A DNA stretch of 64,000 nucleotides from Balanoglossus misakiensis (lineage: Eukaryota > Animalia > Hemichordata), in assembly GCA_040954595.2 (NCBI GenBank), contig CM082588.2:9222844-9286843 (forward strand), in the 5' to 3' direction. The notes beneath the pieces were generated by a model, which saw only the letters and a program-made list of their open reading frames with translations, was not told the origin of the DNA and did no database searches. Positions within the stretch are counted from its first letter, which is position 1, and the number at the start of each line of letters is the position of its first letter. Shown here one piece after another: positions 2,524 through 49,516 of the stretch. A program made the translations under genes and the position numbers.

Positions 2524-2559
<36 letters not shown>

Positions 2560-4676: not shown

Positions 4677-4930
4677 GTATGTAGTGCAAAAAGAATGATC
4701 AGCAGTTAATTTGGACAGGTTTTAATATCAGCTGTAATTTCCACAGCCTTGCTGAGCTCGTTGTGAAATCCATTCGAAATGATACTAGTAGCCTACCGTT
4801 AATTAGGCCAGCAGAGGCGCTACATTCATAGAAATAAACCTGGTTATTAATGTCATGTCAGCGTGTTTGTTTTGACACCACCACCACCACTATCACCATC
4901 GCCACCACTAACACCACCACCACCACCACC

Positions 4931-4962
<32 letters not shown>

Positions 4963-7900: not shown

Positions 7901-10900
7901 AATGAATCTAAGTGAAGACATTATTAAAGGGACAAAGTCTCTCTCTCGCTACTCTATTCCCTTCAATTATGTTTGATACTAGGCACCGTTTGTGTTATCC
8001 TTCATGTGGATATATAGTGAATCAACGTTCAACCACACACACCTTTCATCCCACTTGCAGACACAAGTGAAAAACTCGCCGAAATGAATAATCGTTCTTT
8101 ACCATTTATTCATTTTGGGTGAGTTTTTACTCTCATATCATTAACCACATATACACATGTACATTAGCATAAACGGTGTCTTGTATCAATCATAATAATG
8201 AAAACCGGTCAACGAGAGAGAGAGACTTTGTCCCCTTAACGTCACGTTTCTACAAAAAGGTGATAAACATGGCGGAGTCGTTAAATAATAACAGCAGAAA
8301 GTCTACGATTCTAGTATTTTGTCAAGGAAGACTGAATGTTTTCATCACACGACAATTCTCATTTCTCTTTCATCAAGATGTGAACGAGTGCAACAATGTT
8401 TCGTGTGGAAACAACTCCTTCTGTCGTAATTACAATGGAGGGTATTCCTGCGAGTGTTTCCATGGCTACCAATATCTGGATAAGAGCAATGCGACTTGTG
8501 AAGGTAACAATAAACATGTAATATCAGAAATTGTCTTTTTATAATATAGTTCCTTTACTATTTTATTGCGTTTTTATCTATGCTAACCCTTCTGTAGAAT
8601 TTCGTCAAAACTATGTAACGTACAATGAAGCACACTATTTATATCATAATTAGCTTCTCAATTGAATTCTTCATTAATTATAGTATCAGGCCAAAATAAA
8701 AAAAAATATTTGCTGTTCCGATTTCCCGACCTACCCTAATTTTAACCCGCCGACCCTAAACTTTTTAGAGCTTCGTAAACCCGGAAGTAAAAAAAAATAC
8801 CGATGTGAAATATACGAAATAGATGAAAATCGCGTGGATCACGCGAGAACTATGATGCCATTCTTCTACATTAAAAGTTAAAAAAAACCCGCAAAATAAA
8901 CAAAATTTCCTACCTATCTACCCTATTTTTGAAAACCATGTGATTGGAACAGCACATGTTATTTTCTTGGCCTGACATTTATTTTTCAGACATAGACGAG
9001 TGTAATACACCAGAATTAAATGAATGTAATCATATATGCCAGAATAGGCAAGGTGGATACCAGTGTTCATGCTATGAAGGATACCATTTAATGGGTTCTG
9101 TTGAAGGAGAGGACTACATTGGTAGCAGCCAATACGATGCTTTTGTCAGCAATGGACCTCAAGTCAACAGAACGTGTATTCGTAAGTTGACGATACTAGG
9201 CCCCAAATAAATATGTACTATTCCGATTACCCGACCTACCCTAATTTTAACTCGCTGACCCTAAACTTTTTAGAGATTCGTAAACCCGCAAGTAAAAATA
9301 ACAATGTCAAATATACAAAATTATGAAAATTGCTCGAATCACGCGAGAACAATGACGAAATCGCACGCACTGCGCAAGAACAATGACGTCATTCTTCTTC
9401 ACTACGGCGGCCAGAGAAATTTAAAAAAATCAAAATAAAAAATTCTCCCTACCTGCCTACCGCTTTTTTGAAAACCATGTAATCGGAACAGCTCATATTG
9501 TTTTTTGTCTTAGACAACTGTTTCATACTGCAAACAGAAATGTGCTCTTTACCTCGTGAAGCTAGTACTGCCAACACTGGATATACTCACAATTATCATT
9601 AGTGGGATAGCTAAGTATATTAACTAATCATAGAACATTTTAAGAGCTTAAACGATAATGTTCAAATGGTGTGTTAGAAATAGGATCGTAATTATTTTAT
9701 TTTGCAGCAATGGTGTGTGACCTTCCCATTGACGTTGAAAATGGAATCGCATACCAAAATCTAGCAAATCCATACCTCATCGGAAAGAATACAACCAAAG
9801 TTCTCCTAAACACGTCGATAGAAGTCATTTGTGACAGAGGTTATGAAGCAAATGGTACCTCGATCGTTATTTGCCAAAAAGACGGATTGTTTTCTGGTCC
9901 TCTTCCTACGTGTGTGGGTGAGTAGATGTCCCAATTTATTTGTACATGCATTGATGGTATAACCCTTACAACACCTCTGCACCGTTATATATTATTATTT
10001 TGCAATTGTTATGCTTAAACTCTTGCCGACCCAAGTACACCCAATATCTAACAACACTACGGTAAATTTCTATGTAAGTTGCCATTCAAAACAAATAATT
10101 GACGCTTCTAGCAGTAGAGAGCACACATAAACAACGATTGAACTTGTAGATTTATATATCATTTGATCGGAGATGTTAATGAAACAAATGAAACCACAAG
10201 GATCGGTGTCAAACTTTCTGATTGGCCCAACAACATTACAAATATGGAATGGTAGAAAATCAAGCCTTTGTTTATATGTGAGATCAAACGTAGATATACT
10301 TTTCTGTCGCACCAGAACATGTAGCTGTGATTTCTTGTTACACGTCTTTAATTACTTTCAGTTGCATCGTGTGGTGAACCTGAAAATATCAAAAATGGAT
10401 TCCACGTTATCAGTGACAGTAACATCTATCAAAGTAGAATAGATTATTTCTGCAACGAAGGATACTATCTTCATGGCAACAGATACCGGATATGTGATTA
10501 CAGTCCCACACAGGAAAAGTATGAATGGTCTGGCCTGACGCCCGAATGCAAACGTAAGAAACATTTTAGGTAGACGACTATACCCAAACGCAGTGCATGG
10601 TTATCACATGATAGCCTTACAATATTGAGAAAACAGTGTTGCAATAATTAATGTTATTAATTTCACAATAGTGCCACAAGAGAAGGATTATTAAATGCAT
10701 CAGTGCAGCATTTTGTATATTGATCAGTTGGGATGCGTTCATTGTTATGATTTTTAAACATTTTGGAATTAACTTGGAACCCCTGTTTTTTTATGTTTAT
10801 AGTTAACTGATACAGTTCCTGCTATGCATTAGCAAAAGTATCTATGGTCAAACACACACCGACACAGACATTTTTTGTATTTAGTTGTAGATTGCGGAGA

Positions 10901-13900
10901 GATTTCTCCCCCAAAATATGGTAACATAGTTAACATTGACAATGCAACTAGCTGGAACAGCGTTGTGTCCTTCAATTGCGACAGCAGATACTCTTTAATC
11001 GGATCTCAGTACCGTTACTGTCAATCAGATGGTACGTGGAATGGAACGATTGTGCATTGTATCTTTGTGGGTGAGTAAGATACCACTTATATAAACTCGC
11101 CAAAATGAATAATCGGTCTCTACCAGTTATTCATTTTGGCAAGATTTTTACTCTAATATCCTACACACGGGATGAAAGTTGTGTGTGGTCAAACGTTGAT
11201 TCACTATTTATTCACATGTAGAATAACATAAACGATGTCTTGTATCAAACATAATTAATGGAAAAACGGGCAGCGAGAGAGAGACTTTGTCCTTGTCAGG
11301 GCATCCTTAGTAACAAACTTCTGTGTGTACGGTTCACAGGTGACTGCTTTGATCCGGGTGTACCTCTTAATGGTCAGATTCTTGGTGGTTCCTTCACAGT
11401 AGGTTCAATGTTCAGGTTCACATGTAATCCTGGTTACGATTTGAGTGACGAATATCCTCTATTATGCTATCAGAACGGAGGCATTGTTACATCATCATCA
11501 ACATCATTTACAACAAGTCAAACGTCCTGGGAAGAAGATGTTGGCTCGACAAAACAGTTATATATTACCCCAACAAAGACATCGGTTGAAACTGCAACTT
11601 CTGATGGCCACTATACAGTCCAGAATAGTTATTCAGAAGTGGTTACTGGCGGAGACCTATACAACTTTTCAAAAAATATACACACAACAGTTGAGGCACA
11701 CTCTTCAGAAATGACTAAATACATAACTACCTCCCGAGAAATGATCCCTGCTACAGATGATAGGAAATCCACGGAAATGATTACCAGTGTTGCTCAAACT
11801 GCTGAAAAGTATATTGGTGCAGAAGACACTGAATTTGTCACTGCTTCAGACCAAAACCTATTCCCCGACTTTAACACGGGAGATCAGACTATCTCTACAG
11901 CACAACCTCATGAAACGGAAACATTTATTAGTAGATATATCCTTATCAATAGAACTGACTCATCAGAAATGACCGATGGCAATGACCTGACGCTCAACTC
12001 AGAAATAAATACTGCTACAGAACCCATTGACTATGACCAAATGGTTTCAACAATAGATCAATCAACCTCCGTTGAAGCTACAGAGAGGCTGTTAATCACC
12101 ACTAGTAAACATGAAACCACCTCACCAGAAATAATTACACCCATAGATGAAACGAACTCTTTAGTAATGACCACAGCCAAAGAACCAACTCTCTCATCTG
12201 AAGCCATTACAGTCACAGACCAAATGGACACTGTAGTCAATGGACACCCTCATCAAACTATCTCGTCTGAAATAATTACTTTTACAGGCGAAACAAACAC
12301 TCTGCTAGTAATGACTGGCACAGATAAATCTGTGATATCGGAAGCCATCACTACTACAAACCATCGCAACACGCAACTAATAACAATTACAGCACAACAA
12401 AGCAGATCCCCTGAAATGATTAATGCTGTAGACCAGGTGACCACAGGCAAAGGACAAACTATCTTGCCTGAAATAATTACTTCTACAGATGGAACAGACA
12501 TTCTACTAGTAACCGCTCGCACAGATCAAAGTATTTGGCCGGAAGCCATTACTGGTACAGAGCACCAGGATAGGGAAGAAATGATGACAAAGCAAAGTGT
12601 ATCCTCTGATACATTGTCTACCAAAGACCACCTACTTAAAGCTACCAGTAGAGATCAAACAATATCACATGAAACCATTACTTTAATGGATGAAACAGAC
12701 ACTCTGCAAAGGAACGCTAGCGCAGATCAAACTGTCTCACCCGAAACCTTTACTTCTGCTGATGGGACAAATTCTCTACTTATGACCATAGGCATAGATC
12801 AAACTACGTCGCCTGAAATAATCACTTCAACTGATGAAACGGACACTCCACTGATGGCAACTAGCACAGATCAAACTGCAGTACCTGAAACCTACACTAC
12901 TACTGATGGAACAGGTATTAGACTGATAACAACGACTACAGATTATACTGCAGTACCTGAAACCACCACTTCCAGTGATGGGACACGGACACTACAATTG
13001 ACCACTGGCACAGATCAAACTGCGGTACCTGAAGCCTTCACTTCAACTGATGGGACAGGGACTCTACTGCTGACCACTGGCACAGACCAAACTGTGGTAC
13101 CCGAAGCCTTCACTTCAACTGACGGGACAGGGACTCTACTGCTGACCACTGGCACAGACCAAACTGCGGTACCCGAAGCCTTCACTTCCACTGACGGGAC
13201 AGGGACTCTACTGCTGACCACTGGCACAGACCAAACTGCGGTACCCGAAGCCTTCACTTCAACTGACGGGACAGGGACTCTACTGCTGACCACTGGCACA
13301 GACCAAACTGCGGTACCCGAAGCCTTCACTTCCACTGACGGGACAGGGACTCTACTGCTGACCACTGGCACAGACCAAACTGCGGTACCTGAAGCCTTCA
13401 CTTCAACTGATGGGACAGGGACTCTACTGCTGACCACTGGCACAGACCAAACTGTGGTACCCGAAGCCTTCACTTCAACTGACGGGACAGGGACTCTACT
13501 GCTGACCACTGGCACAGACCAAACTGCGGTACCCGAAGCCTTCACTTCCACTGACGGGACAGGGACTCTACTGCTGACCACTGGCACAGACCAAACTGCG
13601 GTACCCGAAGCCTTCACTTCAACTGACGGGACAGGGACTCTACTGCTGACCACTGGCACAGACCAAACTGCGGTACCCGAAGCCTTCACTTCCACTGACG
13701 GGACAGGGACTCTACTGCTGACCACTGGCACAGACCAAACTGTGGTACCCGAAGCCTTCACTTCCACTGACGGGACAGGGACTCTACTGCTGACCACTGG
13801 CACAGACCAAACTGCGGTACCCGAAGCCTTCACTTCCACTGACGGGACAGGGACTCTACTGCTGACCACTGGCACAGACCAAACTGTGGTACCCGAAGCC

Positions 13901-16900
13901 TTCACTTCCACTGACGGGACAGGGACTCTACTGCTGACCACTGGCACAGACCAAACTGCGGTACCCGAAGCCTTCACTTCCACTGACGGGACAGGGACTC
14001 TACTGCTGACCACTGGCACAGACCAAACTGCGGTACCCGAAGCCTTCACTTCCACTGACGGGACAGGGACTCTACTGCTGACCACTGGCACAGACCAAAC
14101 TGCGGTACCCGAAGCCTTCACTTCCACTGACGGGACAGGGACACTACTGCTGACCACTGGCACAGACCAAACTGTGGTACCCGAAGCCTTCACTTCCACT
14201 GATGGGACAGGGACTCTACTGCTGACCACTGGCACAGACCAAACTGCGGTACCCGAAGCCTTCACTTCCACTGACGGGACAGGGACTCTACTGCTGACCA
14301 CTGGCACAGACCAAACTGCGGTACCCGAAGCCTTCACTTCCACTGACGGGACAGGGACTCTACTGCTGACCACTGGCACAGACCAAACTGTGGTACCCGA
14401 AGCCTTCACTTCCACTGACGGGACAGGGACTCTACTGCTGACCACTGGCACAGACCAAACTGCGGTACCCGAAGCCTTCACTTCCACTGACGGGACAGGG
14501 ACTCTACTGCTGACCACTGGCACAGACCAAACTGCGGTACCCGAAGCCTTCACTTCCACTGACGGGACAGGGACTCTACTGCTGACCACTGGCACAGACC
14601 AAACTGCGGTACCCGAAGCCTTCACTTCCACTGACGGGACAGGGACTCTACTGCTGACCACTGGCACAGACCAAACTGCGGTACCCGAAGCCTTCACTTC
14701 CACTGACGGGACAGGGACTCTACTGCTGACCACTGGCACAGACCAAACTGTGGTACCCGAAGCCTTCACTTCCACTGATGGGACAGGGACTCTACTGCTG
14801 ACCACTGGCACAGACCAAACTGCGGTACCCGAAGCCTTCACTTCCACTGACGGGACAGGGACTCTACTGCTGACCACTGGCACAGACCAAACTGCGGTAC
14901 CCGAAGCCTTCACTTCCACTGACGGGACAGGGACTCTACTGCTGACCACTGGCACAGACCAAACTGCGGTACCCGAAGCCTTCACTTCCACTGACGGGAC
15001 AGGGACTCTACTGCTGACCACTGGCACAGACCAAACTGCGGTACCCGAAGCCTTCACTTCCACTGACGGGACAGGGACTCTACTGCTGACCACTGGCACA
15101 GACCAAACTGCGGTACCCGAAGCCTTCACTTCCACTGATGGGACAGGGACTCTACTGCTGACCACTGGCACAGACCAAACTGTGGTACCCGAAGCCTTCA
15201 CTTCCACTGACGGGACAGGGACTCTACCGATGACCACTGGCACAGATCAAACTGCGGTACCTGAAGCCTTCACTTCAACTGATGGGACAGGGACTCTACT
15301 GCTGACCACTGGCACAGACCAAACTGCGGTACCCGAAGCCTTCACTTCCACTGACGGGACAGGGACTCTACTGCTGACCACTGGCACAGACCAAACTGTG
15401 GTACCCGAAGCCTTCACTTCCACTGACGGGACAGGGACTCTACTGCTGACCACTGGCACAGACCAAACTGTGGTACCTGAAGCCTTCACTTCCACTGACG
15501 GGACACGGACACTACAATTGACCACTGGCACAGATCAAACTGCGGTACCTGAAGCCTTCACTTCAACTGATGGGACAGGGACTCTACTGCTGGCCACTGG
15601 CACAGACCAAACTGCGGTACCCGAAGCCTTCACTTCCACTGACGGGACAGGGACTCTACTGCTGACCACTGGCACAGACCAAACTGTGGTACCCGAAGCC
15701 TTCACTTCCACTGACGGGACAGGGACTCTACTGCTGACCACTGGCACAGACCAAACTGTGGTACCCGAAGCCTTCACTTCCACTGACGGGACAGGGACTC
15801 TACTGCTGACCACTGGCACAGACCAAACTGCGGTACCCGAAGCCTTCACTTCCACTGACGGGACAGGGACTCTACTGCTGACCACTGGCACAGACCAAAC
15901 TGCGGTACCCGAAGCCTTCACTTCCACTGATGGGACAGGGACTCTACTGCTGACCACTGGCACAGACCAAACTGTGGTACCCGAAGCCTTCACTTCCACT
16001 GACGGGACAGGGACTCTACTGCTGACCACTGGCACAGACCAAACTGCGGTACCTGAAGCCTTCACTTCAACTGATGGGACAGGGACTCTACTGCTGACCA
16101 CTGGCACAGACCAAACTGTGGTACCCGAAGCCTTCACTTCAACTGACGGGACAGGGACTCTACTGCTGACCACTGGCACAGACCAAACTGCGGTACCCGA
16201 AGCCTTCACTTCCACTGACGGGACAGGGACTCTACTGCTGACCACTGGCACAGACCAAACTGCGGTACCCGAAGCCTTCACTTCCACTGACGGGACAGGG
16301 ACTCTACTGCTGACCACTGGCACAGACCAAACTGCGGTACCCGAAGCCTTCACTTCCACTGACGGGACAGGGACTCTACTGCTGACCACTGGCACAGACC
16401 AAACTGCGGTACCCGAAGCCTTCACTTCCACTGACGGGACAGGGACTCTACTGCTGACCACTGGCACAGACCAAACTGCGGTACCCGAAGCCTTCACTTC
16501 CACTGACGGGACAGGGACTCTACTGCTGACCACTGGCACAGACCAAACTGCGGTACCCGAAGCCTTCACTTCCACTGACGGGACAGGGACTCTACTGCTG
16601 ACCACTGGCACAGACCAAACTGCGGTACCCGAAGCCTTCACTTCCACTGACGGGACAGGGACTCTACTGCTGACCACTGGCACAGACCAAACTGCGGTAC
16701 CCGAAGCCTTCACTTCCACTGACGGGACAGGGACTCTACTGCTGACCACTGGCACAGACCAAACTGCGGTACCCGAAGCCTTCACTTCCACTGACGGGAC
16801 AGGGACACTACTGCTGACCACTGGCACAGACCAAACTGTGGTACCCGAAGCCTTCACTTCCACTGATGGGACAGGGACTCTACTGCTGACCACTGGCACA

Positions 16901-19900
16901 GACCAAACTGCGGTACCCGAAGCCTTCACTTCCACTGACGGGACAGGGACTCTACTGCTGACCACTGGCACAGACCAAACTGCGGTACCCGAAGCCTTCA
17001 CTTCCACTGACGGGACAGGGACTCTACTGCTGACCACTGGCACAGACCAAACTGTGGTACCCGAAGCCTTCACTTCCACTGACGGGACAGGGACTCTACT
17101 GCTGACCACTGGCACAGACCAAACTGCGGTACCCGAAGCCTTCACTTCCACTGACGGGACAGGGACTCTACTGCTGACCACTGGCACAGACCAAACTGCG
17201 GTACCCGAAGCCTTCACTTCCACTGACGGGACAGGGACTCTACTGCTGACCACTGGCACAGACCAAACTGCGGTACCCGAAGCCTTCACTTCCACTGACG
17301 GGACAGGGACTCTACTGCTGACCACTGGCACAGACCAAACTGCGGTACCCGAAGCCTTCACTTCCACTGACGGGACAGGGACTCTACTGCTGACCACTGG
17401 CACAGACCAAACTGTGGTACCCGAAGCCTTCACTTCCACTGATGGGACAGGGACTCTACTGCTGACCACTGGCACAGACCAAACTGCGGTACCCGAAGCC
17501 TTCACTTCCACTGACGGGACAGGGACTCTACTGCTGACCACTGGCACAGACCAAACTGCGGTACCCGAAGCCTTCACTTCCACTGACGGGACAGGGACTC
17601 TACTGCTGACCACTGGCACAGACCAAACTGCGGTACCCGAAGCCTTCACTTCCACTGACGGGACAGGGACTCTACTGCTGACCACTGGCACAGACCAAAC
17701 TGCGGTACCCGAAGCCTTCACTTCCACTGACGGGACAGGGACTCTACTGCTGACCACTGGCACAGACCAAACTGCGGTACCCGAAGCCTTCACTTCCACT
17801 GATGGGACAGGGACTCTACTGCTGACCACTGGCACAGACCAAACTGTGGTACCCGAAGCCTTCACTTCCACTGACGGGACAGGGACTCTACCGATGACCA
17901 CTGGCACAGATCAAACTGCGGTACCTGAAGCCTTCACTTCAACTGATGGGACAGGGACTCTACTGCTGACCACTGGCACAGACCAAACTGCGGTACCCGA
18001 AGCCTTCACTTCCACTGACGGGACAGGGACTCTACTGCTGACCACTGGCACAGACCAAACTGTGGTACCCGAAGCCTTCACTTCCACTGACGGGACAGGG
18101 ACTCTACTGCTGACCACTGGCACAGACCAAACTGTGGTACCCGAAGCCTTCACTTCCACTGACGGGACACGGACACTACAATTGACCACTGGCACAGATC
18201 AAACTGCGGTACCTGAAGCCTTCACTTCAACTGATGGGACAGGGACTCTACTGCTGGCCACTGGCACAGACCAAACTGCGGTACCCGAAGCCTTCACTTC
18301 CACTGACGGGACAGGGACTCTACTGCTGACCACTGGCACAGACCAAACTGTGGTACCCGAAGCCTTCACTTCCACTGACGGGACAGGGACTCTACTGCTG
18401 ACCACTGGCACAGACCAAACTGTGGTACCCGAAGCCTTCACTTCCACTGACGGGACAGGGACTCTACTGCTGACCACTGGCACAGACCAAACTGCGGTAC
18501 CCGAAGCCTTCACTTCCACTGACGGGACAGGGACTCTACTGCTGACCACTGGCACAGACCAAACTGCGGTACCCGAAGCCTTCACTTCCACTGACGGAAC
18601 AGAGACTCTACCGATGACCACTGGCACAGATCAAACTGCCTTATCTGAAGCCTTCCCTTCCAATGATAGGACAGACTATTTACTGATAACCACTAACACA
18701 GATCACACTTCATTACCTAACACAATACATTCTACTGATAGAATGGACGCTGTAATGTTTACCACTAGCCAAGCTCAAGCTGCATCACCTGAAACCTTAA
18801 CTACCACTGATGGAAGGGACACTCAACAAATGACCACTAGCACATATCAAAGTACATCACCTCAAACCATCACTTCTACTGATGGAGCCATTACTTCTAC
18901 TTATGAAATCGATACTCCACTGTCAACTACAAGCACAGATGAAAATGCACCACCTAAAACCATCACTTCTACTGATGGAGCGGACACTCTACTGATGACC
19001 TCTAGCACAGATCACAGTACATCACATGAAAGAATCACTTCAACTAATGAAATTGACACTCCACTGATGACCAATAGCACATATCAAACTACATCACCTC
19101 AAACCATCACTTCTACTGATGGAGCGGGCACTCTACTTATGACCACAAGCACAGATCAAAGCTCATCACCTGAAACAATCACATCTACTGATGAAATGGA
19201 CACTCCAAGAATGAACACTAGCACAGATCAAAGTACATCATATGAAGCCTTTTCTTCTACTAATGAAATGGATACTCCACGAATGACCACTAGCACAGAT
19301 CAAAGTACATCACCTGAAAGAATCACATCTACTGATGAAATGGACACTCCACGAATGACCACAAGCAAAGATCAAAGTACATCATATGAAGCCTTTTCTT
19401 CTACTAATGAAATGGATACTCCACGAATGACCACCAGCACAGATCAGAGTACATCACTTGAAAGAATCACATTTACTGAAGGAATGGACACTCCACGAAT
19501 GAACACAAGCACATATCAAAGATCATCACCTGAAGCCATCAATTCTACTGATGGAACGGACACTCTACCGATGACCACTTACACAGATCAAAGTACATCA
19601 CATGAAAGAATCATTTCTACTAATGGAGCGGACACTCTACTGATGACCACTAGCGCAGATCAAAGTACATCACATGAAAGAATCACTTCTACTGACGGAA
19701 TGGACACCCCACGAATGACCACCAGCACAGATCAAAATACATCATATGAAAGAATCACTTCTACTAATGGAGTGGACACTCTACTGATGACCACTAGCAC
19801 AGATCAAAATACATCATATGAAAGAATCATTTCTACTAATGGAGCGCACACTCTACTGATGACCACTAGCGCAGATCAAAGTACATCACATGAAAGAATC

Positions 19901-22900
19901 ACTTCTACTGACGGAATGGACAATCTACGAATGACCACAAGCACTGATCAAAGTACAACATATGAAGCCCGTTCTTCTACTAATGAAATGGATCCTCCAC
20001 GAATGACCACTAGGACAGATCAAAGTACATCATATGAAGCCTTTTCTTCTACTAATGAAATGGACACTCCACGAATGACCACAAGGACAGATCAAAGTTC
20101 AACACCTGAAAGAATAACATCTACTGAAGGAATGGACACTCCACAAATGACCACTATGACAGATCAAAGTACATCATATGAAGCCTTTTCTTCTACTAAT
20201 GAAATGGATACTCCACGAATGACCACTAGCACAGATCAAAGTACATCACCTGAAAGAATCACATCTACTGATGAAATGGACACTCCACGAATGACCACAA
20301 GCAAAGATCAAAGTACATCATATGAAGCCTTTTCTTCTACTAATGAAATGGATACTCCACGAATGACCACCAGCACAGATCAGAGTACATCACTTGAAAG
20401 AATCACATTTACTGAAGGAATGGACACTCCACGAATGAACACAAGCACATATCAAAGATCATCACCTGAAGCCATAAATTCTACTGATGGAACGGACACT
20501 CTACCGATGACCACTTACACAGATCAAAGTACATCACATGAAAGAATCATTTCTACTAATGGAGCGGACACTCTACTGATGACCACTAGCGCAGATCAAA
20601 GTACCTCACATGAAAGAATCACTTCTACTGACAGAATGGACACCCCACGAATGACCACCAGCACAGATCAAAATACATCATATGAAAGAATCACTTCTAC
20701 TAATGGAGTGGACACTCTACTGATGACCACTAGCACAGATCAAAATACATCATATGAAAGAATCATTTCTACTAATGGAGCGCACACTCTACTGATGACC
20801 ACTAGCGCAGATCAAAGTACATCACATGAAAGAATCACTTCTACTAATGGAGCGGACACTCTACTGATGACCACTAGCACAGATCAAAATACATCACATG
20901 AAAGAATCACTACTACTGACGGAATGGACAATCTACGAATGACCACAAGCACATATCAAAGCTCATCACCTGAAGCCATCAGTTCTACTGACGGAACGGA
21001 CACTCTACCGATGACCACTATCACAGATCAAAGTACATCACATGAAGGAATCACTTCTACTATTGGAGCGGACACTCTACTGATGACCACTAGCACAGAT
21101 CAAAATACATCACATGAACGAATCACTTCTACTATTGGAGCGGACACTCTACCGATGACCACTAACACAGATCAAAGTACATCACATGAAAGAATCACTT
21201 CTACTATTGGAGCGAACACTCTACTGATGACCACTAGCACAGATCAAAATACATCATATGAAAGAATCACTTCTACTGACAGAATGGACACTCCACGAAT
21301 GACCACTAGCACAGATCAAAGCTCATCAGCTGAAACAATCACTTCTCCTGAACGAATGGATACTCTACTGATGACCACTAGCACAGATCACAGTACATCA
21401 TATGAAAGAATCACTTCTACTGACGGAATGGACACTTCACGAATGACAACTAACATATATGAAAGTACATCACCTGAATCCATCACCTCTACTGATGGAA
21501 TAGATACTTTACTGATGACCACTAGCACAGAAAAAAGTACATCGCCTGAAGCAATCACTTCTACAAATAAAATGGACACTCTACAGATGACCACTAGCAC
21601 AGATCAAAATATATCACCTGAAAGAATCACATCTACTAACGAAATTGACACTTCACGAATGACAACTAACATATATCAAAGTACATCACCTGAATCCATC
21701 ACATCTACTGATGGAATAGATACTTTACTGATGACCACTAGCACAGAAAAAAGTACATCGCCTGAAGTAATCACTTCTACAAATAAAATGGACACTCTAC
21801 AGATGACCACTAGCACAGATCAAAATATATCACCTGAAAGAATCACATCTACTAACGAAATTGACACTTCACGAATGACAACTAACATATATCAAAGTAC
21901 ATCACCTGAATCCATCACCTCTACTGATGGAATAGATACTTTACTGATGACCACTAGCACAGAAAAAAGTACATCGCCTGAAGTAATCACTTCTACAAAT
22001 AAAATGGACACTCTACAGATGACCACTAGCACAGATCAAAATAGATCACCTGAAAGAATCACATCTACTAACAGAATTGACACTTCACGAATGACAACTA
22101 ACATATATCAAAGTACATCACCTGAATCCATCACTTCTACTAATGGAGCAGACACTTTACTGATGACCACTAGCACAGATCAAAATACATCATATGAAAG
22201 AATCACTTCTACTGACGGAATGGACACCCCACGAATGACCACTAGCACAGATCAAAGCTCATCAGCTGAAACAATCACTTCTCCTGAACGAATGGATACT
22301 CTACTGATGACCACTAGCACAGATCAAAATACATCATATGAAAGAATCACTTCTACTGACGGAATGGTCACTCCACGAATGACCACTAGCACAGATCAAA
22401 GCCCATCACCTGAAGCCATCAATTCTACTGAAGAAATGGACACACTACAAATGACCACTAGCATAGATCAAAATACATCACATGAACGAATCACTTCTAC
22501 TGATGGAATGGACACCCCACGAATGACCACAAGCACAGATCAAAATACATCATATGAAAGAATCACTTCTACTAATGGAGTGGACACTCTACTGATGACC
22601 ACTAGCACAGATCAAAATACATCACATGAAAGAATCACTTCTACTGACGGAATGGACACCCCAGGAATGACCACCAGCACAGATCAAAGTATATCACATG
22701 AGAGAATCACTTCTACTAATGGAGCGGACACTCTACTGATGACCACTAGCACAGATCAAAATACATCACATGAAAGAATCACTTCTACTGACGGAATGGA
22801 CACCCCACGAATGACCACTAGCACAGATCACAGTACATCACATGAAAGAATCACTTCAACTAATGAAATGGACACTCTGCGAATAACCACTAGCACATAT

Positions 22901-25900
22901 CAAAGGCCATCACCTGAAGCCACCAATTCTACTGAAGAAATGAACACCCTACAAATGACCACTAGCATAGATCCAAGTAATTTACCTGAAACAATAAACT
23001 CTACTGGTGGAACGGATACTTTACTGATGACATCTAGCATAGATAAAAGTACATCGCATGAAACACTCACTTCTACCGACGGATTAGACACTCCACGAAT
23101 GACCACTAGCACAGATCAAAATACATCACCTGAACCAATCGAATCTACTGATGGAACGGACACTCTACTGATGACCACTAGCACATATCAAAGTACATCA
23201 CCTCAAACCATCACTTCTACTGACGGAATGGACACTCCACGAATGACCACTAGCACAGATCAAAATACATCACATGAAAGAATCACATCTACTGACATAA
23301 TTGACACTCTAAGAATGACCAGTAGCACAGATCAAAGTACATCACATGAAACCATTTCTTCTACTAATGAAATGGACACTCCACGAATGACCACTACCAC
23401 AGATCAAAATACATCACCTAAAAAAATCACATCTACTGATGGAATGGACACTTCACGAATGTCAACTAAAATATATCATAGTACATCACCTGAATCCATC
23501 ACTTCTACTGATGGAATGGATACTTTACTGATGACCACTAGCACAGAAAAAAGTACATCGCCTGAAGCAATCACTTCTACAAATAAAATGGACAGTCTAC
23601 AGATGACCACTAGCACAGATCAAAATAGATCACCTGAAAGAATCACATCTACTAACAGAATTGACACTTCACGAATGACAACTAACATATATCAAAGTAC
23701 ATCACCTGAATCCATCACTTCTACTGATGGAATGGGTACTTTACTGATGACCACTAGAACAGATCAAAGCTCATCATCTGAAACCATCACTGCCACTGAT
23801 GGAATGGATACTTTACTGATGACCACTAGAACAGATCAAAACTCATCATCTGAATACACCACTTCCACTGATGGAATGGATACTTTACTGATGACCACTA
23901 GAACAGATCAAAGCTCATCATCTGAAACAATCACTTCCACTGATGGAATGGATACTTTACTGATGACCACTAGAACAGTTCAAAGCTTATCATCTGAAAC
24001 AATCACTTCTACTGATGGAATGGATATTTTACTGATGACCACTAGCACAGATAAAAGTACATCACCTCAAACAATCACTTCTAATGATGGAGCAGACACT
24101 CAACGAATGACCAGCAGCACAGATCAAAGTAGATCACCTGAACCCACCACTTCTACTCATGGAACAGACATTACAGACCATGAGACAAGTGTACATAATG
24201 CAACGCCTTCACAATTAACTGTTACAATGGACGGAAGGAATGTTACTGCGCTAATGTCAGGTACAGTACAGCCGCACAGTCAATCAATAGGTGCTGCGAT
24301 GCTAAAATGTATTACACTGAAATGAAACAACATAATGAAGCAGTATAAAACCACTTATGAACACGAATGTGATTATTTTGTAAGCAAATAACAAAGAATT
24401 GTTGACAAAGTTACTTTGTTTTCCAGATCGTGATGTGGGATATTCACCTCAAGCGACCAGTTTTGCCGTCCCAACTACCGACGCCTTGGTGTCTGACCAC
24501 AATGTAACCACTGATGACGTTCAAACCGCCAACAAAAGTCTACAAGGTACGTTTAGGGGTAACACTTAAATCAGGCTGTACGAGCTGGAATTGGGTAGCC
24601 GCCATCACGAGAGTAAGAACATTCGCCAAAATGAATAATCGTTCTCTACAATTTATTCATTTTGGACGAGTTTTTACTCTCATATCCTACAAACGGAATT
24701 GAAGTTGTGCGTGGTTGAACGTTGATTCACTATATATCCACATGTACATTAACACAAACGGTGTCTGGTATCACACATAATTAATGGAAAAGGGGCAGCG
24801 AGAGAGAGAGACTTTGTCCCTTCAAGGCAGCTCATCTTAGATTGTTTGTATTTGAATTCACAGTGCGCAAAAGGAGATCTGTTGAAGACTCTTATTATAC
24901 GAGTGAAGCCGAGCGAACTGATATGTATTCAAGCAGAGAAGTCATACTATATGGTAATGATGATGCGATGTTTTCGGTTGCGTGGAATGCAACTGTCCCA
25001 ACATGTATAGGTTAGTATGCTATCGATACGTACTTGTAATTAATTGTCGGTTTCCTACATTCTGGGTTACAGTAGAGGCAAATTTCGGCCACAGTTATTG
25101 GTAACATGCTGATCCTGTAATGCTGGCTTCATTTCATATTATTTTGAACTTAGATTTATTTTGTGGTTTTGACAATTTTATTATTCATTTACAGATGTTC
25201 AACCGCCTATTTTGCAGTGTCCAAATAGTTTCGTTATATTTGTTGACAACGAGGATTATAATATCACCTATCCTGATGTTTATATAAGTGACAATGAGGG
25301 TATATATGATGTGATAATGGACCCTCCGAATGGGACAGTTACAGCTTTCCGTAATTTTGTCAGTGTTAACATAACTGCTATTGATTATAACGGCAACAAG
25401 GCAGAGTGTCACTTTTCTATTCAAGTAAAACGTGAGTATTTCACATATTTCGTTCATGATTTAAAGGAATTATTACACCTATTTTTATTTCATTTGAGTG
25501 TTAAACATTTATTTAGTAAAATAACCATTTTATCCAAATCAAGACATTATATTTCGGCTATGGTTTTCTATAATTAATGATTCATTAATAAAATCGTCGA
25601 AATTCATGTCCCTCAGAAAAAATCTCAATTCGTATTTGCCGCGTATAGACCACGTGACATGACGTCATTGGGGAAGTCGTTGCCAGTACGTAAACAGTGA
25701 TATCGTTGCACAGCCTAGCCCAAAGCGAGAGTCCCGCGTTTCCATCATTATTATCAAACGATGCGTCGTCGGGGGCTGTAAAAACACTATCCGTAGTGTT
25801 CATAGATTTCCGAAAAGCAAAGGACTGAGAGAAAAATGGGAGCGCTTCGTACAAAACGGCCCAAAGGTCACTACATCGCCGTAAAGGTAATGATGAATGG

Positions 25901-26894
25901 AACTGTACCGGTGTTATGCCAGTTTTGGGTAACCGGTCGCTTTTGAACAGAGAGTTTATCTGTGATATTTATGTATGAAATTTGTCGTCCCATTACGTTT
26001 TTTTCACAACAGAGATGTCAGCAATGATGTTTTAGTACGGACCGTGTCGGCATGGCGTAGTGCCGCGCACCGGGTTCTTTGTGTATATATCGGTGACCAG
26101 ACGAGCGCAGACCTCCGTATCGGGGAGGCAGATCGGCTACGAGAATATTTGAGTTTCACTGAACCACTCCATGAACATTTTATTGGACATATTTATTGTA
26201 AAATAAAAACAAACAAACAGAAAATGATGCTTATTCACCAATCTATATTTCCCACTCGAGAAAATTCAGGCGAATCTGGACCCGCGCTTGCATGCATTTC
26301 TTCGCTCCGCATCGACGGTTGCCCACCAGCCCGAACAGGTTGAGGAGATACCTCACGCCTTGCTGGTTCAAATCTATACGGCTGTGGCCAGGAATTTCCT
26401 TGAAAGCAGCGACGAAGAGCCCAAAACTCTCCATCGCTACTGTCTGAATCATATACTCTCCCAACAAATTGCCTCGTCATTGACCGTGTTTACCGTTGAC
26501 GCCATAAAAGTCAAGTAGACGACATGTACGCCTCTCGATGCGATGAATTGTAGACTGAAGGCGAAGGAGAGCCCCCCAATGACGTCACACGTAACGGGGC
26601 CGTTCAGACAGAGATTTTTTTGAAGGGGTGAACATTTATTAGGATAACATTTATTCATCGACGAGAATAAAAAAAAAAAACGACACCAGAATTCAAATCA
26701 TGAATGCAATTTTAGTTTACGGTCAAAAAATGAAAAATACATTTTGATAGGTGTAATAAACTCTTTAAATCACGACAAGTCAATGGGAGGATCGAAGTTA
26801 TTCTGTAGTTAATTAAAATTGTAAAACATTGATAACGTGAAACTATTTAAATACTATACTACTACTACAACCAGTGCCGCCACCGCCACTTCTG

Positions 26895-26969
<75 letters not shown>

Positions 26970-29900
26970 CTGCACCACCACCACCACCACCATTATCACC
27001 ATCATAATTATCATAATCATCATTATAGCCGCCGCCGACATCGCCATCGTCACAGTTGTTTACATCTACTTCCATCAGATAAACTCTGTTTCTGATGAAG
27101 TATTTTTTACAAATGTATTATTTGCAGCCCAAATATGCTCGGAGCTGTCTCTTCCTACGCCCGCTGACGGTCACAAGTCCTGCACTACCACAATGTTTGG
27201 TCTAGATGTTTCTGCATTGTCCTGCAATGTCTCATGTCCACTGGGGTATGATTTCATTGGAGACATTGAATCACCTGGAGTCTATGTCTGTGATGATGGT
27301 GGATTCTGGAGTCCGAACAACTCCGTCCCTGATTGTTCGGGTAAGTGAATTGTATCGTTAGTCAAGATATCCCATATTCTACTTTTTGTGTGTCCCAGCT
27401 CTTTGGGTCAATCCACTCAGCAGTCATTGCTCACACACGACTTCTTAAAATTTGTCAATACTCTAAGTGAAATTTGATATAGTTTTGCCTACGTTTTGTT
27501 GTACGTTTCCCCTGTACCGTTTCCCGCTCAACACCCTTCAACTTGATCAAGCATCGTTTGGGAAGTAATTTTGTGTGCACATGTGTAATAACCCTTTTTT
27601 ATTGTTACCTATATTGAAATCAATTCCGGACTCGAATTCAGCTTCCTGCAATACCATTGCTTAATGCACACAATGTTGGTACCTGTAATATTTAGCATTT
27701 TGTCATCCCTGGGTAATAGTAAAGAAAATGTCTAATTTATGCAAAGAACAAGAAACCGACAGAAATATCAAAACCTCTAGGGAATTCAGATTTGTATATG
27801 ACGCTTCGCTCGTCAATAACTGATTTCCGGGAGGCGTGTATATCATATATGTATTGTTTATGATATATGTGTTCTAGCATAGAACTGACTATGGTTCTAG
27901 TTTCTTGCAGACAAAGAGAAGAAGTTGTCCACGAAAAGTTTACACACCTATCAGTATAGTGGTATAATCCAAATAATGTGTGTGAACAAAACAAAACATT
28001 AACTATTTTTTATTTCAGAGCAGAAGACGCCAAGCTATTGCCTGACACTCACTTGTGAGTACCTCGCATCATCACAGGTCTCCATTACAGGCTGCCAGTC
28101 ATATTATGAATCTGTGCTAATGACTGCATACCTGGCGTTTATTGAAGCGGATTTATTTGCTCAGTGCGCAGTAGTGAAAATAATGGCTAGTACAAACGCT
28201 GTCACCATGACAGCAAATGCAACAACGGTAAGTCACACATGGATACTTGCAATGTACTTGTAATGGCTATACGTGTGAATGTGTTGGACGGTGAAAAAGC
28301 ATTGTCCACTATACATGTACAGAACGCCTAAACGTAACTTATTGCTTTGCGTATTATATTGACAAATACTTTTATGACCGTTTTGCATGGCAAAGTGGTA
28401 AGTTAAATACACACCCACTAAGGTTTACATCATTAGTGATAATTATTCATTTCCAAAATGATATTGGTCTCGCCAAAAGCGGAGTAATTCTTATTGAACT
28501 TATCTGTGGCACCCACTGGAACAAGTATAATCAGACCGATTCGAGATATAGTCAACTAGAGTGTATTGCCGAATGAATGGACGGATCTAGGTGTCTGTGG
28601 AAAGAGAGACGACCCAGCGGTGATGCCACATCTCAACTGATTGAATTCTGATGGTTATGTGAAGACGTTGGTTGCGATGACTTTCACCCCTTCACAATAT
28701 GCGTCCATGCCCATGTCAGCTCAATAGACACAACGACCGTCAAAATGGTACTCCCACAATGAAGTCTAAGTGCTCTGCATCCATAGCTGCAGGTGACCCA
28801 CTTTCCACCCAGAGTCCTCACCGGGTATTACCCTCAATGCGTTGAGCGTTCCATAATAAAAATGCGCAAGAAAAATCCAGACTGGCTCATAGAGATAAGA
28901 TGATCCCGATTGATTCTGTACATGGTCATTTGTCCGCAGGTTGAATTCATGTTGAAAGCAATGCTGGAGACGCCATCTTTGAATCTGACCAGTGACGAGG
29001 AATCTTTATGCGGTTTGAGTACGTTAAATAATCTAAACATCACGGATTTTCTGTTGACTGTCGGTACGATCAGGTCTGACAACAATACCTGTCCAGAACT
29101 GAATCTTCTCACACCACCGGGGAAGAACGATGTCAAGTTGTGTTGTGGCGATGGTCAAATCTTTAAATCAAACTTCTGCTGTAAGTTTGGATTTCTTAAA
29201 TTCCATTTTTTTGTGTGATTCAATTTATGATACAGGCAACTTAGAAATGCATGGCGGTGTTGGAGCAGGCAATGCTAAACAAAATATTGCATATAGGCCT
29301 ACATGCTTGAAAGGTCACAGACGGTTCGTATCGTATTGCAAAACAGTGTTAAGCATTTTTCTACTTTGGTATAAAATATTTACAGCTGACTTTTACCGCA
29401 TATTCTTCGATATCAAATGACGTCAGACACGCACAGGCGCAGTTACGTTGGCATTCAAATTTCCAGATGACTGGCAACTTCAACAACGTGGTGCAGACAA
29501 AGACTGTGCAAACGAAACCATGAGGCTGATAGGGGAACATACCTGATACATGTTACGGGTCTGGCAGTTCTAAAGAAAAACATACTCGGAAAAACTTTTA
29601 CTGGATGCCGAAATATTGCTGGCCCGTCATCTGGAAATGACAACGCCGTGGGTCACATGGCAAGATCACGTGACTGATACTAAAGAATAGTGTTTATATT
29701 ATCAACTTATGCGTTTAATTATCAATGTATCAATGGCCTATATTGTACAAGCTACTTAATGCAGTTTTCTCCAAAAGACATTTACATGTGTTCACCTTGA
29801 TGAAACGTGTTTAAAATTTACAGTGAGCTGCACGGCTGGTACATACGCTGATAATAATACATGTTTGAGTTGTCCAACGGGAACATATCAAAATGAAATC

Positions 29901-32900: not shown

Positions 32901-33780
32901 GTACTCTCTCATCATGGTGTGCGTTTATTTATTCAGATTCATAAACTGCATATACTTTTATTAACATACAGTTTTTGACAAATTTGATAGAGTTGTGCTT
33001 GTCTGTCGTCTATTAAAGGGACAAATTCTCTCTCTCACTACCGTTTTTCCATTAATTATGTTTGATACAAGACGCAGTTTATGTTTTTCTACATGTGGAT
33101 TTAGTGAATCAACGTTCGACCACAAACAACTTCCATCCCACTTGTAGATACAAGAGTGAAAAAACTCGCCAAAATGAATAATCGGTCTCTTCCATTTATT
33201 CATCTTGGCGATATTTTTACTGTCCTATCCTGCAAACAGGATACAAGTTGTTTGTGGTCGAACACTGATTCACTATATATCCACATGTAAAATAACACAA
33301 ACGGTGTCTTGTATCAAACATAATTAATGGAAAAAGGGCAGCGAGAGAGAGACGTTGTCCCTTTAAGTATCCGAAACCATCATCAAGGTAACAAGCTAGG
33401 CAGTATTCTATTGGGCGCAACAAGGAGAGATTCGATGAATCCGATCATTTACTTGGTCGGCGATTCCACAAAGCGAATCTTTGCTGCTTGTCAACCTGTT
33501 CATCTTTTTTGATTTGCAAGATGAATGTGCATCATTCCCGTGTGTCAATAATGGAACTTGTATAGATGATGTCGGCGGCTACCAATGTCACTGTTTCGAT
33601 GGTTATTTTGGAGACAGATGCCAACATCGTGTTAACACATGCCTTAGTGAACCCTGCGGAAATGGTGGGAAATGCACGGATAATATGCATGACTACTTCT
33701 GTGAATGTTTTGATGGCTGGTCAGGTAAGTAGCATACAGCAGGCACGCCATACGATACTCAGGCTGAAATAACCTGGTGG

Positions 33781-33830
<50 letters not shown>

Positions 33831-48019: not shown

Positions 48020-48266
48020 ATACTGAACAAAAGACATTTTATGAATGCTTGACGGAAATGTGATCAATGATATAGCGTGTAAAGGAGAGGCTATTTAGTG
48101 ATAGTTCAAGTTGATTTTACCCGGATACTTATTAGTTACTGGTAGCTATGATGTTTGTATTCCAATTCCTATTGAACCACGTTCATCATGTACGAGAAAA
48201 CGTGTATTATAATTGAACCCATCTTAAGAGCTACTTAAACATGAAATTCAATGTTTGTAAGCTTCC

Positions 48267-48902: not shown

Positions 48903-48974
48903 TTATTATCCTGTGTAATCTAAACCGTAAGTCCCCGCGCCCTTGTAAGAGTAACCTACACATCACAACACAGC

Positions 48975-49516
48975 TAGACTGTCGACAGTCCCTCGCGCCT
49001 AATGTGTATCGATTTGGCGTTTCGTGCGAGGGCCGTAAGGCCCGTATCTTTTGAGGGCCGAAGGCGCGATTCGGTGTTTCGTGGTTCGAGGGCCGTAAGG
49101 CCCGAGGGCGTGGCCCGAGGGACTGTTATAGCTTGTTTCGCCCTCACACGGCATTGTCAGGAAATTCACCTGTAACGCAACTGGCTTTAGTTCGGGACAT
49201 GTAAACATGTGACAGGAGCATTCGTCTATATTTTCCAAGAAAGGCTTCTGGGCTTCCGAACACAAGATTAAAGCTCCCCTTCACCAGATTTGCTTGAACT
49301 TGATGATCGGACGAGCTAACATGTTTACATGTCCCGAACTAAAGCCAGTTGCGTTACAGGTGAATTTCCCGACAATGCCACGCCCTCGGGCCTTACGGCC
49401 CTCGCACCACGAAACACCGAATCGCGCCTTCGGCCCTCAAAAGATACGGGCCTTACGGCCCTCGCACGAAACGCCGAATCGACACACATTAGGCGCGAGG
49501 GACTGTCGACAGTCTA
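48975..49516. mobile_element. Foldback non-autonomous DNA transposon with about 200-bp TIRs and an 8-bp TSD
   Basis: TAGACTGTCGACAGTC... / ...GACTGTCGACAGTCTA termini; direct repeat AACACAGC at 48967-48974 and 49517-49524. Confidence 0.88.

What the first reader, a model, noticed from the sequence alone, without database searches (positions are those of the whole stretch)
11340..25010. A mucin of about 4,340 residues is inserted inside a single Sushi/CCP domain
Seen: exon 16 opens with Sushi Cys1 (11345), Cys2 (11423, TCNPGY) and Cys3 (11465, PLLC), then runs into the T/S repeat array with no further Cys. The missing end of the fold, WNATVPTC (Trp 24983, Cys4 25004), appears only in exon 18, just before the HYR exon. 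In neighbouring Sushi exons Cys3 and Trp are about 5 residues apart (CQSDGTW), and 10 in exon 14; here about 4,344 residues intervene. Established: Sushi domains pair Cys1-Cys3 and Cys2-Cys4. Inference: the mucin is not an in-line spacer as in typical membrane mucins but a giant loop projecting sideways from a split domain. I do not know of a described example.
Basis: partly seen in the sequence, partly recalled or inferred. Interest (0 to 1): 0.9.

Follow-up and report, generated by a model that had tools for sequence, protein, structure and literature searches.

The report
Giant mucin inside split Sushi domain
A predicted cell-surface receptor gene, closest to acorn-worm genes, places 4,344 threonine/serine-rich residues between the two halves of one small Sushi domain, a split its relatives share with very different inserts, and a furin motif at the insert's end likely turns it into a long sugar-coated side arm held on by one disulfide bond.

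Summary
In a 49-exon, 7,197-residue open gene model, Cys1-3 of one Sushi domain are separated from its Trp and Cys4 by 4,344 cysteine-free residues, 43% Pro/Thr/Ser. Rejoined in silico, the halves span a whole Sushi profile and outscore the gene's seven intact Sushi exons. The repeat array evolves as coding DNA.

New here: the split is a family trait. Four hemichordate genes (five records, three species) carry the same break, with inserts of 35 to 1,819 residues: furin motifs only, mucin plus expansin-like modules, or unrelated repeats. All have furin motifs in the insert; here RKRR lies 39 residues before the Trp. So the mucin is probably cut into a free-ended side arm tethered by the Cys2-Cys4 disulfide, not a closed loop.

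Splicing, cleavage, glycosylation and fold are inferred; structure prediction was inconclusive. Closest analogues: insulin-receptor insert domain, Ebola GP mucin region. My ten paper searches found no described case in a Sushi domain. The scan had not noted this family before; one giant-virus note reports other domains nested in a Sushi-like module.

The parts
201..48020 (+). Host gene, 49 predicted exons, 7,197 residues, 5' end outside the window: LDLa, 3 CUB, 4 Sushi, 2 EGF, 3 Sushi, split Sushi, HYR, Sushi, unnamed module, ephrin-receptor-like Cys repeats, EGF array, pentraxin/LamG, HYR, Sushi, unnamed module, Cys repeats, EGF, S/T stalk, transmembrane helix, cytoplasmic tail
   Evidence: open model; Pfam on 14 pieces: Sushi, HYR, Pentaxin; other domain names read from the translation and from Pfam on homologues; 38-43% identity to hemichordate proteins in the best segments
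11340..11467 (+). N-half of the split Sushi domain (Cys1 11345, Cys2 11423, Cys3 11465), start of exon 16
   Evidence: aligns with homologue N-halves
11468..12844 (+). 5' part of the insert: unique then degenerate T/S-rich repeats of the 72-nt family
   Evidence: 32% S+T over 11468-12982
12845..18674 (+). Repeat array 1: 81 copies of a 72-nt (24-residue) unit, 96% matches, with a block of 21 units repeated 2,664 nt downstream
18932..24164 (+). Repeat array 2: about 73 diverged copies of the same 72-nt family, 80% matches, no stop or frameshift
24260..24325 (+). Predicted exon-16 donor (after 24260, weak) and read-through stop at 24323-24325
   Evidence: no AATAAA/ATTAAA in 24261-25200
24427..24546 (+). 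Exon 17, 40 codons, T/S-rich continuation of the insert
   Evidence: acceptor score 10.0, donor 6.0
24866..24877 (+). Furin-type motif RKRR at the start of exon 18, 39 residues before the Trp
   Evidence: similar motifs 10-17 residues before the Trp in 7 of 9 homologue records
24983..25010 (+). C-half of the split Sushi domain (Trp 24983, Cys4 25004) and phase-1 donor
25195..25431 (+). Exon 19, HYR domain that follows the split Sushi in every family member examined
   Evidence: HYR 7e-07
40973..40984 (+). Second furin-type motif, in the membrane-proximal unnamed module
   Evidence: basic motifs at the same place in homologues
46870..46963 (+). Exon 48, hydrophobic transmembrane segment
   Evidence: Translation (by eye; no predictor run)

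Best explanation
The gene is predicted to encode a large single-pass receptor in which the last Sushi domain before the first HYR domain is split between Cys3 and the Trp by a 4,344-residue T/S-rich repeat, and furin likely cuts at the RKRR motif near the insert's end, so that the insert would become a free-ended, probably O-glycosylated side arm. Steps: (1) shown in sequence: the halves, the insert, the absence of Cys in it and the furin motif. (2) Shown by comparison: the same break, with furin motifs, in four hemichordate genes. (3) Inferred: exons 16-17-18 splice as modelled. (4) Inferred from the canonical Cys1-Cys3, Cys2-Cys4 pairing: the two halves close in the ER, Cys2 waiting for a partner 4,366 residues later. 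(5) Inferred: after cleavage, the outer subunit (CUB/Sushi head plus mucin) stays on the membrane subunit through one disulfide and the Trp strand. (6) Inferred function: a glycocalyx brush roughly 1-1.5 micrometres long if extended (0.25-0.35 nm per residue, recalled), whose length can change by repeat gain or loss without changing the distance between the binding head and the membrane. The loop acts as an evolutionary cassette slot.
For: Rejoined halves 55.6 bits over the full profile, with controls. Exactly four Cys are available, none in the insert. A profile of the family's halves aligns across both halves to solved CCP modules of CR1, CR2 and CD55, with the gap in the Cys3-Trp loop. Same split in Ptychodera XP_070567428 (insert 1,506), Saccoglossus LOC100378937 (two models, 121 and 1,819), a Ptychodera paralogue (954) and a Glandiceps paralogue (35); all 5 records with both halves have furin motifs in the insert, and deleting the insert raises each score by 11-15 bits to full length. 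In the orthologues the sequence after Cys3 is also P/T/S-rich at once (47-61% in the first 100 residues). Three mollusc-type records have a furin motif 15 residues before the Trp. Coding test: 0 in-frame stops in exon 16 against 238 and 369 in the other forward frames; 0 of 7 stop-making codon variants seen against 97 of 209 others in array 2, P about 0.013; 166 of 177 windows matched the unit well enough to place and all 166 were in frame; pN/pS 0.28 and 0.75. No GT donor scores above 0 between Cys3 and 11638. The break is unusual: of 3,876 Sushi matches in 180 fetched proteins, 27 stop early; 6 are this family, and the pre-HYR Sushi of a SVEP1-like protein is intact.
Against: No junction of this gene has been seen in RNA; homologue records are database gene models whose RNA support I could not inspect. 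Exon 16 has weak splice sites by the gene's own matrices (acceptor 2.7, donor 2.6) and stronger in-frame donors lie inside it (12914, 22976). All six exon skips tested among exons 16-18 keep the frame. AlphaFold2 on the 35-residue-insert paralogue left the Sushi part below pLDDT 50, with a shallow alignment. AlphaFold2 folded six repeat units as a beta-solenoid (pLDDT 78.7). In the Ptychodera paralogue the furin motifs are at the start of the insert, 925 residues before the Trp, so the geometry is not universal. In 4 of 9 homologue records the N-half is absent, so the split is not shown there. Cleavage and glycosylation are untested.
Confidence: 0.7

Rival explanations
1. One reading: the insert is inside the Sushi domain but stays uncut, as a closed giant loop.
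For: Same sequence and homologue evidence for the split. Furin motifs are not always used, and O-glycans or N-glycans nearby could block the site (general knowledge).
Against: A furin-type motif sits 10-39 residues before the Trp in the window model and in 7 of 9 homologue records, although the inserts share nothing else; the shortest insert (35 residues) is little more than three such motifs. That points to selection for cutting.
Confidence: 0.1
2. The array is coding but the main transcripts avoid the full model: exon 16 is skipped, shortened at an internal donor, or ends a secreted mucin at the read-through stop (24325), so the full-length split-domain protein is minor or absent.
For: Weak exon-16 splice sites and stronger internal donors and acceptors; all tested skips are in frame; the two Saccoglossus models differ by about 1,700 insert residues, which may be alternative splicing.
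Against: No poly(A) hexamer in the 940 nt after the donor. Exons 17 and 18 have good sites. Three Ptychodera isoform records all keep the insert and differ only by single residues at junctions, one just before the furin motif. Both Saccoglossus models keep both halves.
Confidence: 0.1
3. The insert is not a disordered mucin but a folded beta-solenoid rod of about 175 coils (possibly Ca2+-bound) grafted into the Sushi loop.
For: AlphaFold2 gives a regular two-strand coil per 24 residues, pLDDT 78.7, pTM 0.74. Pro is only 4%; array 1 falls on the folded side of the charge-hydropathy line; some positions are nearly fixed.
Against: [quoted passage not shown] 25 of 62 distinct array-2 units have Pro inside the predicted long strand; array 2 and the 5' part fall on the disordered side. 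Alternation of conserved positions is not significant (p 0.06-0.12). No solved structure matched the model at E <= 0.001. Orthologue inserts are irregular P/T/S tracts.
Confidence: 0.07
4. The Sushi domain is dead: the N-half is a truncated remnant, the Trp-Cys piece is a separate cap for the HYR domain, and the mucin is an ordinary in-line spacer; or the array is an intronic satellite or an assembly inflation.
For: The C-half alone scores only 5-7 bits. In the AlphaFold2 model the Trp-Cys piece is confident next to HYR while the N-half is not. Near-identical array-1 blocks could be mis-assembled in copy number.
Against: Both halves keep all four Cys, the Trp and the Pro across three hemichordate species, and each would otherwise have an unpaired Cys. 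The array shows the coding signature above. Array 2 alone has 62 distinct units of 72, so over 1,700 residues do not depend on collapsed or inflated identical copies.
Confidence: 0.03

Closest known systems
Hemichordate LOC100378937-type proteins (Saccoglossus XP_077862127.1, Ptychodera XP_070567428.1, Glandiceps LOC144433174), all 'uncharacterized' in the records
   Same: Same domain order and 38-43% identity in the best segments; the window protein is sister to these three with support 97/95 (12 rows; two SVEP1-like rows dropped for short matches); same split Sushi and furin motif in the two full-length ones.
   Different: Their inserts mix P/T/S tracts with Cys-containing expansin-like (DPBB_1, below Pfam cut-off in Ptychodera) and other modules; the window's is a pure, Cys-free, 24-residue tandem repeat, 2.4-fold longer. 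The window row is a long branch (1.16), so paralogue or distant orthologue is open.
Drosophila Uninflatable (Uif)
   Same: Large single-pass protein with C-type lectin, three CUB, CCP, HYR and EGF domains (PMC3340373, passages); apical in epithelia, with a 'presumed cleavage site' (PMC12867482, section 7).
   Different: Uif has two FA58C domains and three HYR; Pfam finds no FA58C and two HYR in the hemichordate proteins. No mucin or split CCP is mentioned in the passages read. I could not obtain the Uif sequence, so orthology is untested.
SVEP1/Polydom
   Same: Shares Sushi-HYR, ephrin-receptor-like, EGF and pentraxin modules and has a furin site (PMC13722417, passages).
   Different: Secreted, has vWA and a long C-terminal CCP array; the pre-HYR Sushi was intact in the 1 of 4 SVEP1-like records where my pattern located it.
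Insulin receptor insert domain
   Same: A disordered, glycosylated insert holds an RKRR furin site and is cut into two parts on two chains (PMC7039211, passages). That it sits within FnIII-2 and that the chains are disulfide-linked is recalled.
   Different: Fibronectin-III host, about 120 residues (recalled), not a tandem-repeat mucin.
Ebola virus GP mucin-like domain (architectural analogy only)
   Same: Unstructured O-glycosylated region of about 150 residues on a furin-cut, disulfide-linked heterodimer, shielding the surface (PMC3656028, passages). Its position just before the furin site is recalled.
   Different: Viral fusion protein, no Sushi domain, about 30-fold shorter.
Heligmosomoides TGM, HpARI and HpBARI CCP domains with insertions
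   Same: CCP folds that tolerate insertions (PMC9163516 and PMC10516467, passages).
   Different: A 23-residue ordered insert in the hypervariable loop, not the Cys3-Trp loop; no cleavage; about 190-fold shorter.
Membrane mucins (MUC1, MUC4, MUC16) and CD55/CD46 stalks (recalled)
   Same: Single giant repeat exon rich in T/S, and a cleaved ectodomain that stays on a membrane subunit.
   Different: Their mucin region is terminal or in line between whole domains; here it interrupts a domain.

Membership tests
Sushi/CCP domain (PF00084) | Four Cys and a Trp before Cys4 in the canonical pattern | tested here: met
   met only across the insert
Sushi/CCP domain (PF00084) | About 60 contiguous residues reaching the Pfam cut-off | tested here: not met
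   Native N-half 20.0 bits (cut-off 20.7), profile 8-47 of 56; exon 18 no hit. Full-length score only after in-script deletion, on my own profile
Sushi/CCP domain (PF00084) | Compact beta fold with Cys1-Cys3 and Cys2-Cys4 disulfides | tested here: inconclusive
   AlphaFold2 on the short-insert paralogue: Sushi part pLDDT under 50, HYR over 90
Membrane mucin | Long tandem-repeat region rich in Pro, Thr and Ser in one large exon | tested here: met
   T 28.5%, S 10.1%, P 4.0%; 12.9-kb exon; 72-nt arrays. Pro is low
Membrane mucin | Dense O-glycosylation and extended, unfolded chain | not testable with these tools
   Composition suggests it; AlphaFold2 solenoid is a known artefact class
Membrane mucin | Transmembrane anchor and cleaved ectodomain | tested here: inconclusive
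   Hydrophobic segment and two furin motifs present; cleavage untested
Uninflatable (Uif) | Three CUB, multiple CCP, HYR and EGF domains with one transmembrane helix | tested here: met
Uninflatable (Uif) | Two FA58C domains and three HYR domains | tested here: not met
   No FA58C and two HYR in hemichordate homologues; none seen in the window model. Filed as Uif-like only
Uninflatable (Uif) | N-terminal C-type lectin domain | tested here: inconclusive
   Outside the window; the orthologues' N-terminus looks lectin-like by eye but Pfam did not list it
Uninflatable (Uif) | Orthology to insect Uif by sequence or tree | not tested
   No insect Uif among listed hits
SVEP1/Polydom | vWA domain, secreted, long C-terminal CCP array | tested here: not met
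   No vWA in homologues; transmembrane segment present
Hemichordate LOC100378937-type receptors | Shared domain order, split pre-HYR Sushi with furin motif, and grouping in a tree | tested here: met

The most novel reading that the evidence does not exclude
An old invertebrate receptor family has turned one Sushi domain into a two-piece, disulfide-latched clasp with a furin-cut cassette slot, into which lineages plug anything from 35 residues to a 4,344-residue mucin, expansin-like modules or other repeats, possibly including the FA58C pair of fly Uif. A 55-residue domain would then close correctly across more than 4,000 residues in the ER, and one disulfide would act as the release latch for the whole outer head plus a micrometre-long glycan arm.
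Probability: 0.5. Interest if true: 0.85.

Novelty: new variant of a known kind. Interest (0 to 1): 0.72.

Why it matters
Domain insertions and furin-cut loops are known, but the Sushi insertions I found in print are about 23 residues. An insert about 80 times the size of its host domain would be an extreme test of how disulfide-bonded domains fold across long sequence gaps. It also gives a design for a glycocalyx arm whose length is uncoupled from the reach of the binding head. The paralogue with a 35-residue insert makes the split fold easy to express and solve. The finding also warns annotators: Pfam sees only a sub-threshold half domain, so the split is invisible in routine annotation, and it predicts where to look for the unplaced cleavage site and FA58C pair of fly Uif.

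Tried and rejected
No whole genome is held, so copy number, paralogues and the 5' exons could not be checked. Sequencing-run search for 8370-12840: no RNA holder was listed; no evidence either way, and no reads could be laid. Complex prediction of the window's two halves (51 and 44 residues): no answer, score 0.04 against a mark of 0.34, alignments not used, controls not folded; no evidence either way. AlphaFold2 on the Glandiceps paralogue stretch with an 11-row alignment: Sushi part unresolved; its fold search matched only Ig-like domains through HYR, none at E <= 0.001. Whole-protein alignments A2 and A3 misplaced the short window pieces and were discarded. Homologue search with exon 39: none of 42 candidates scored. 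Search with the N-terminal region was crowded by CSMD proteins, 120 of 514 listed; search with the HYR2 region gave 4 of 166 candidates, all hemichordate; insect Uif was not retrieved. ESM Atlas with P0032: best 0.89, a lead only. Intronic satellite: rejected; the simulation (0 of 300 runs stop-free) treats units as independent and overstates the case, so I rely on the distinct-variant test. Donor just after the PLLC codons: no GT above 0; a phase-1 GC at 11480 fits the GC-donor consensus (recalled) poorly and would still leave a loop of over 40 residues with the furin motif. The similar sequence in introns 15 and 17 is a dispersed repeat with copies in many introns, not a duplication that made the insert. 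Paper searches for a described case: (none found); some searches were for background. The library lacks most subscription papers, including the original Uif description, and I opened no supplements; the eLife figure supplement that places the Uif cleavage site was not seen. Earlier-finding look-ups: no match to this locus or family.


Full report
Observation. The window holds one large gene on the plus strand. A model of 49 exons from 201 to 48020 reads open for 7,197 residues with a single terminal stop; all acceptors are AG and all donors GT. The 5' end lies outside the window. Exon 16 (11340-24260) starts with Cys1, Cys2 and Cys3 of a Sushi domain at 11345, 11423 and 11465. The next Trp-x6-Cys is in exon 18 at 24983 and 25004. 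With exon 17 included, 4,344 residues and no Cys lie between Cys3 and Trp: T 28.5%, S 10.1%, P 4.0%, D+E 13.8%, 37 N-glycan sequons. The junctions are predicted from splice signals, phase and homology.

Do the halves belong together? Pfam Sushi covers only positions 8-47 of 56 in exon 16 and nothing in exon 18. I built a 54-position profile from 200 of 443 intact Sushi domains harvested from 12 CSMD- and SVEP1-like proteins; 393 of the 443 have 5 residues between Cys3 and Trp, within a pattern limited to 3-9. With the insert removed in a script, the window's halves score 55.6 bits over positions 1-54. The N-half alone scores 40.4 and the 7 intact Sushi exons 31.9-51.2. Only 3 of 2,000 random 12-mers matched that score, all true Sushi ends; 0 of 1,000 shuffles did; and the exon-18 piece was best of 1,893 distinct 12-mers in the interval, the best other being 48.0. 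I chose the join to give a 5-residue loop, which helps the score. A family profile aligns over both halves to solved CCP modules of CR1, CR2 and CD55, several of which have a few extra residues in this same loop. AlphaFold2 on a paralogue with a short insert did not resolve the Sushi part (pLDDT under 50; HYR over 90), so the fold is inferred, not modelled.

Is the array coding? Two arrays of one 72-nt family fill the exon: 81 copies at 96% and about 73 at 80%. The reading frame has no stop, against 238 and 369 in the other forward frames; pN/pS to the consensus is 0.28 and 0.75. In array 2, 0 of 7 possible stop-making codon variants occur against 97 of 209 others (P about 0.013). Of 177 windows, 166 matched the unit well enough to place, and all 166 are in frame, including across register shifts. 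No GT donor scores above zero between Cys3 and 11638. Against this, exon 16's own acceptor (2.7) and donor (2.6) are weak, stronger in-frame donors lie at 12914 and 22976, and all six skips tested keep the frame, so shorter isoforms are possible. The matrices were trained on 44 donors and 46 acceptors of the draft model, one acceptor of which was later corrected. A run of 21 units is repeated 2,664 nt downstream, so the exact copy number may be polymorphic or assembly-dependent.

Relatives. A search of 1.84 billion representatives with exon 35 gave 49 hits; names came. Nine records were examined for the split. Five have both halves: Ptychodera XP_070567428 (insert 1,506 residues), two models of Saccoglossus LOC100378937 (121 and 1,819), a Ptychodera paralogue (954) and a Glandiceps paralogue (35). 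That is four genes in three species. Deleting the insert raises each to a full-length match. The orthologue inserts start P/T/S-rich right after Cys3 and also hold Cys-containing expansin-like modules; the Ptychodera paralogue has unrelated repeats. The other four records (a crinoid, a snail, a scallop and a close relative of the scallop record) lack the N-half, so they show only the Trp-Cys-HYR junction preceded by non-Sushi sequence. C-terminal fragments such as P0007, P0011 and P0012 could not be tested. In a tree of the pentraxin-to-juxtamembrane region the window protein is sister to three acorn-worm orthologues (97/95) on a long branch. Among 3,876 Sushi matches in 180 fetched proteins, 27 stop early: 6 are this family, 17 are fish CSMD rows (mostly a Trp-less variant with Cys4 close by) and 4 come from one partial draft model. 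That set is redundant and not a survey of all Sushi domains, and the two paralogue N-halves fell under its score floor.

Exon 18 opens with RKRR, 39 residues before the Trp. A furin-type motif lies 10-17 residues before the Trp in 7 of 9 homologue records; in the Ptychodera paralogue the motifs are at the start of the insert, and in the crinoid record 616 residues upstream. The shortest insert is little more than three such motifs. The conserved core is therefore a Sushi domain with a cleavable loop, and the cargo varies.

Mechanism. Most likely the chain folds with Cys1-Cys3 and Cys2-Cys4 bonds, furin cuts after RKRR, and the mucin becomes an arm attached at its N-terminus to the Sushi N-half with a free C-terminus. 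The outer subunit would stay on the membrane subunit through one disulfide and the Trp strand. Extended, the arm would be about 1.1-1.5 micrometres (recalled rise per residue). It would form a surface brush while the CUB/Sushi head keeps a fixed distance from the membrane. Hemichordate epidermis is strongly mucus-secreting (PMC13554239, one passage) and fly Uif is apical (PMC12867482, section 7), which fits but does not test this. I put the coded split at about 0.85 and the cut, tethered arm at 0.7. AlphaFold2 folds six repeat units as a beta-solenoid, but this is a reported artefact for repeats including mucin 22 (PMC11795689, passages); 25 of 62 distinct units have Pro in the predicted long strand, alternation of conservation is not significant, and no structure matches. 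I keep it as a minor rival.

Comparison with what is known. It works like the insulin-receptor insert domain, a disordered insert with an RKRR site (PMC7039211, passages), and like the Ebola GP mucin region on a furin-cut disulfide-linked dimer (PMC3656028, passages). The largest Sushi insertion I found in print is the 23-residue loop of TGM-D3, in a different loop (PMC9163516, PMC10516467, passages). The protein resembles Drosophila Uif (PMC3340373, passages; PMC13178913, passages; PMC12867482, passages and section 7) but lacks FA58C domains, and orthology was not tested. It is not SVEP1 (PMC13722417, passages). Searches found no described mucin or large insert in the Cys3-Trp loop of a Sushi domain; other papers in those listings were seen as titles and abstract starts only.

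Verdict. A real, conserved and apparently undescribed architecture: a split Sushi domain that serves as a furin-cut cassette slot, here loaded with a 4,344-residue mucin-like repeat. It is a new variant of a known kind. Interest 0.72, limited by the lack of transcript, fold and cleavage data.

Noticed in passing
P0025 about 1270-1470, 2170-2370, 2530-2770; P0050 about 1620-1825, 2220-2425: The Saccoglossus and Ptychodera orthologue inserts contain two or three expansin-like (DPBB_1, weak Pfam match) modules between mucin tracts, unusual for an animal membrane protein.
   Followed up: partly
P0047 383-1336: The Ptychodera paralogue's insert is about 950 residues of Cys-containing repeats with no Pfam family listed, with furin motifs at its start rather than its end.
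   Followed up: no
window 40973-40984: A second furin-type motif in the membrane-proximal unnamed module, also present in homologues; the ectodomain may be cut twice.
   Followed up: partly
window exon 49, 47698-48020: The cytoplasmic tail has an NPxY motif that is also in the Saccoglossus and Ptychodera orthologues, a candidate endocytosis or PTB-binding signal (motif meaning recalled).
   Followed up: no
window 58058-60890, minus strand: A TRIM-NHL-type gene in two long ORFs: RING, B-box, then filamin and NHL repeats.
   Followed up: partly
window 60855 onward, plus strand: A SIMPL/DUF541 gene begins head to head with the TRIM-NHL gene, the two frames overlapping at their 5' ends.
   Followed up: partly
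window 11091-11310, 24623-24829, 5452-5633, 6640-6967, 7930-8233, 33019-33360, 62784-63054: A dispersed, partly palindromic repeat of about 200 nt, 68-88% identical, in many introns including both sides of the insert; probably a miniature transposon.
   Followed up: partly
window 12845-24164: The 24-residue unit looks like two related 12-residue halves; Tandem Repeats Finder reports a 36-nt period at 23788-23972.
   Followed up: partly
window 24261-24325: Read-through past the exon-16 donor adds a short tail with one Cys (24308) before the stop; a secreted form could use it as a fourth Cys. No poly(A) hexamer follows within 940 nt.
   Followed up: partly
window about 48970-49520: A GC-rich stretch that looks like a long inverted repeat just downstream of the gene, seen by eye.
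   Followed up: no
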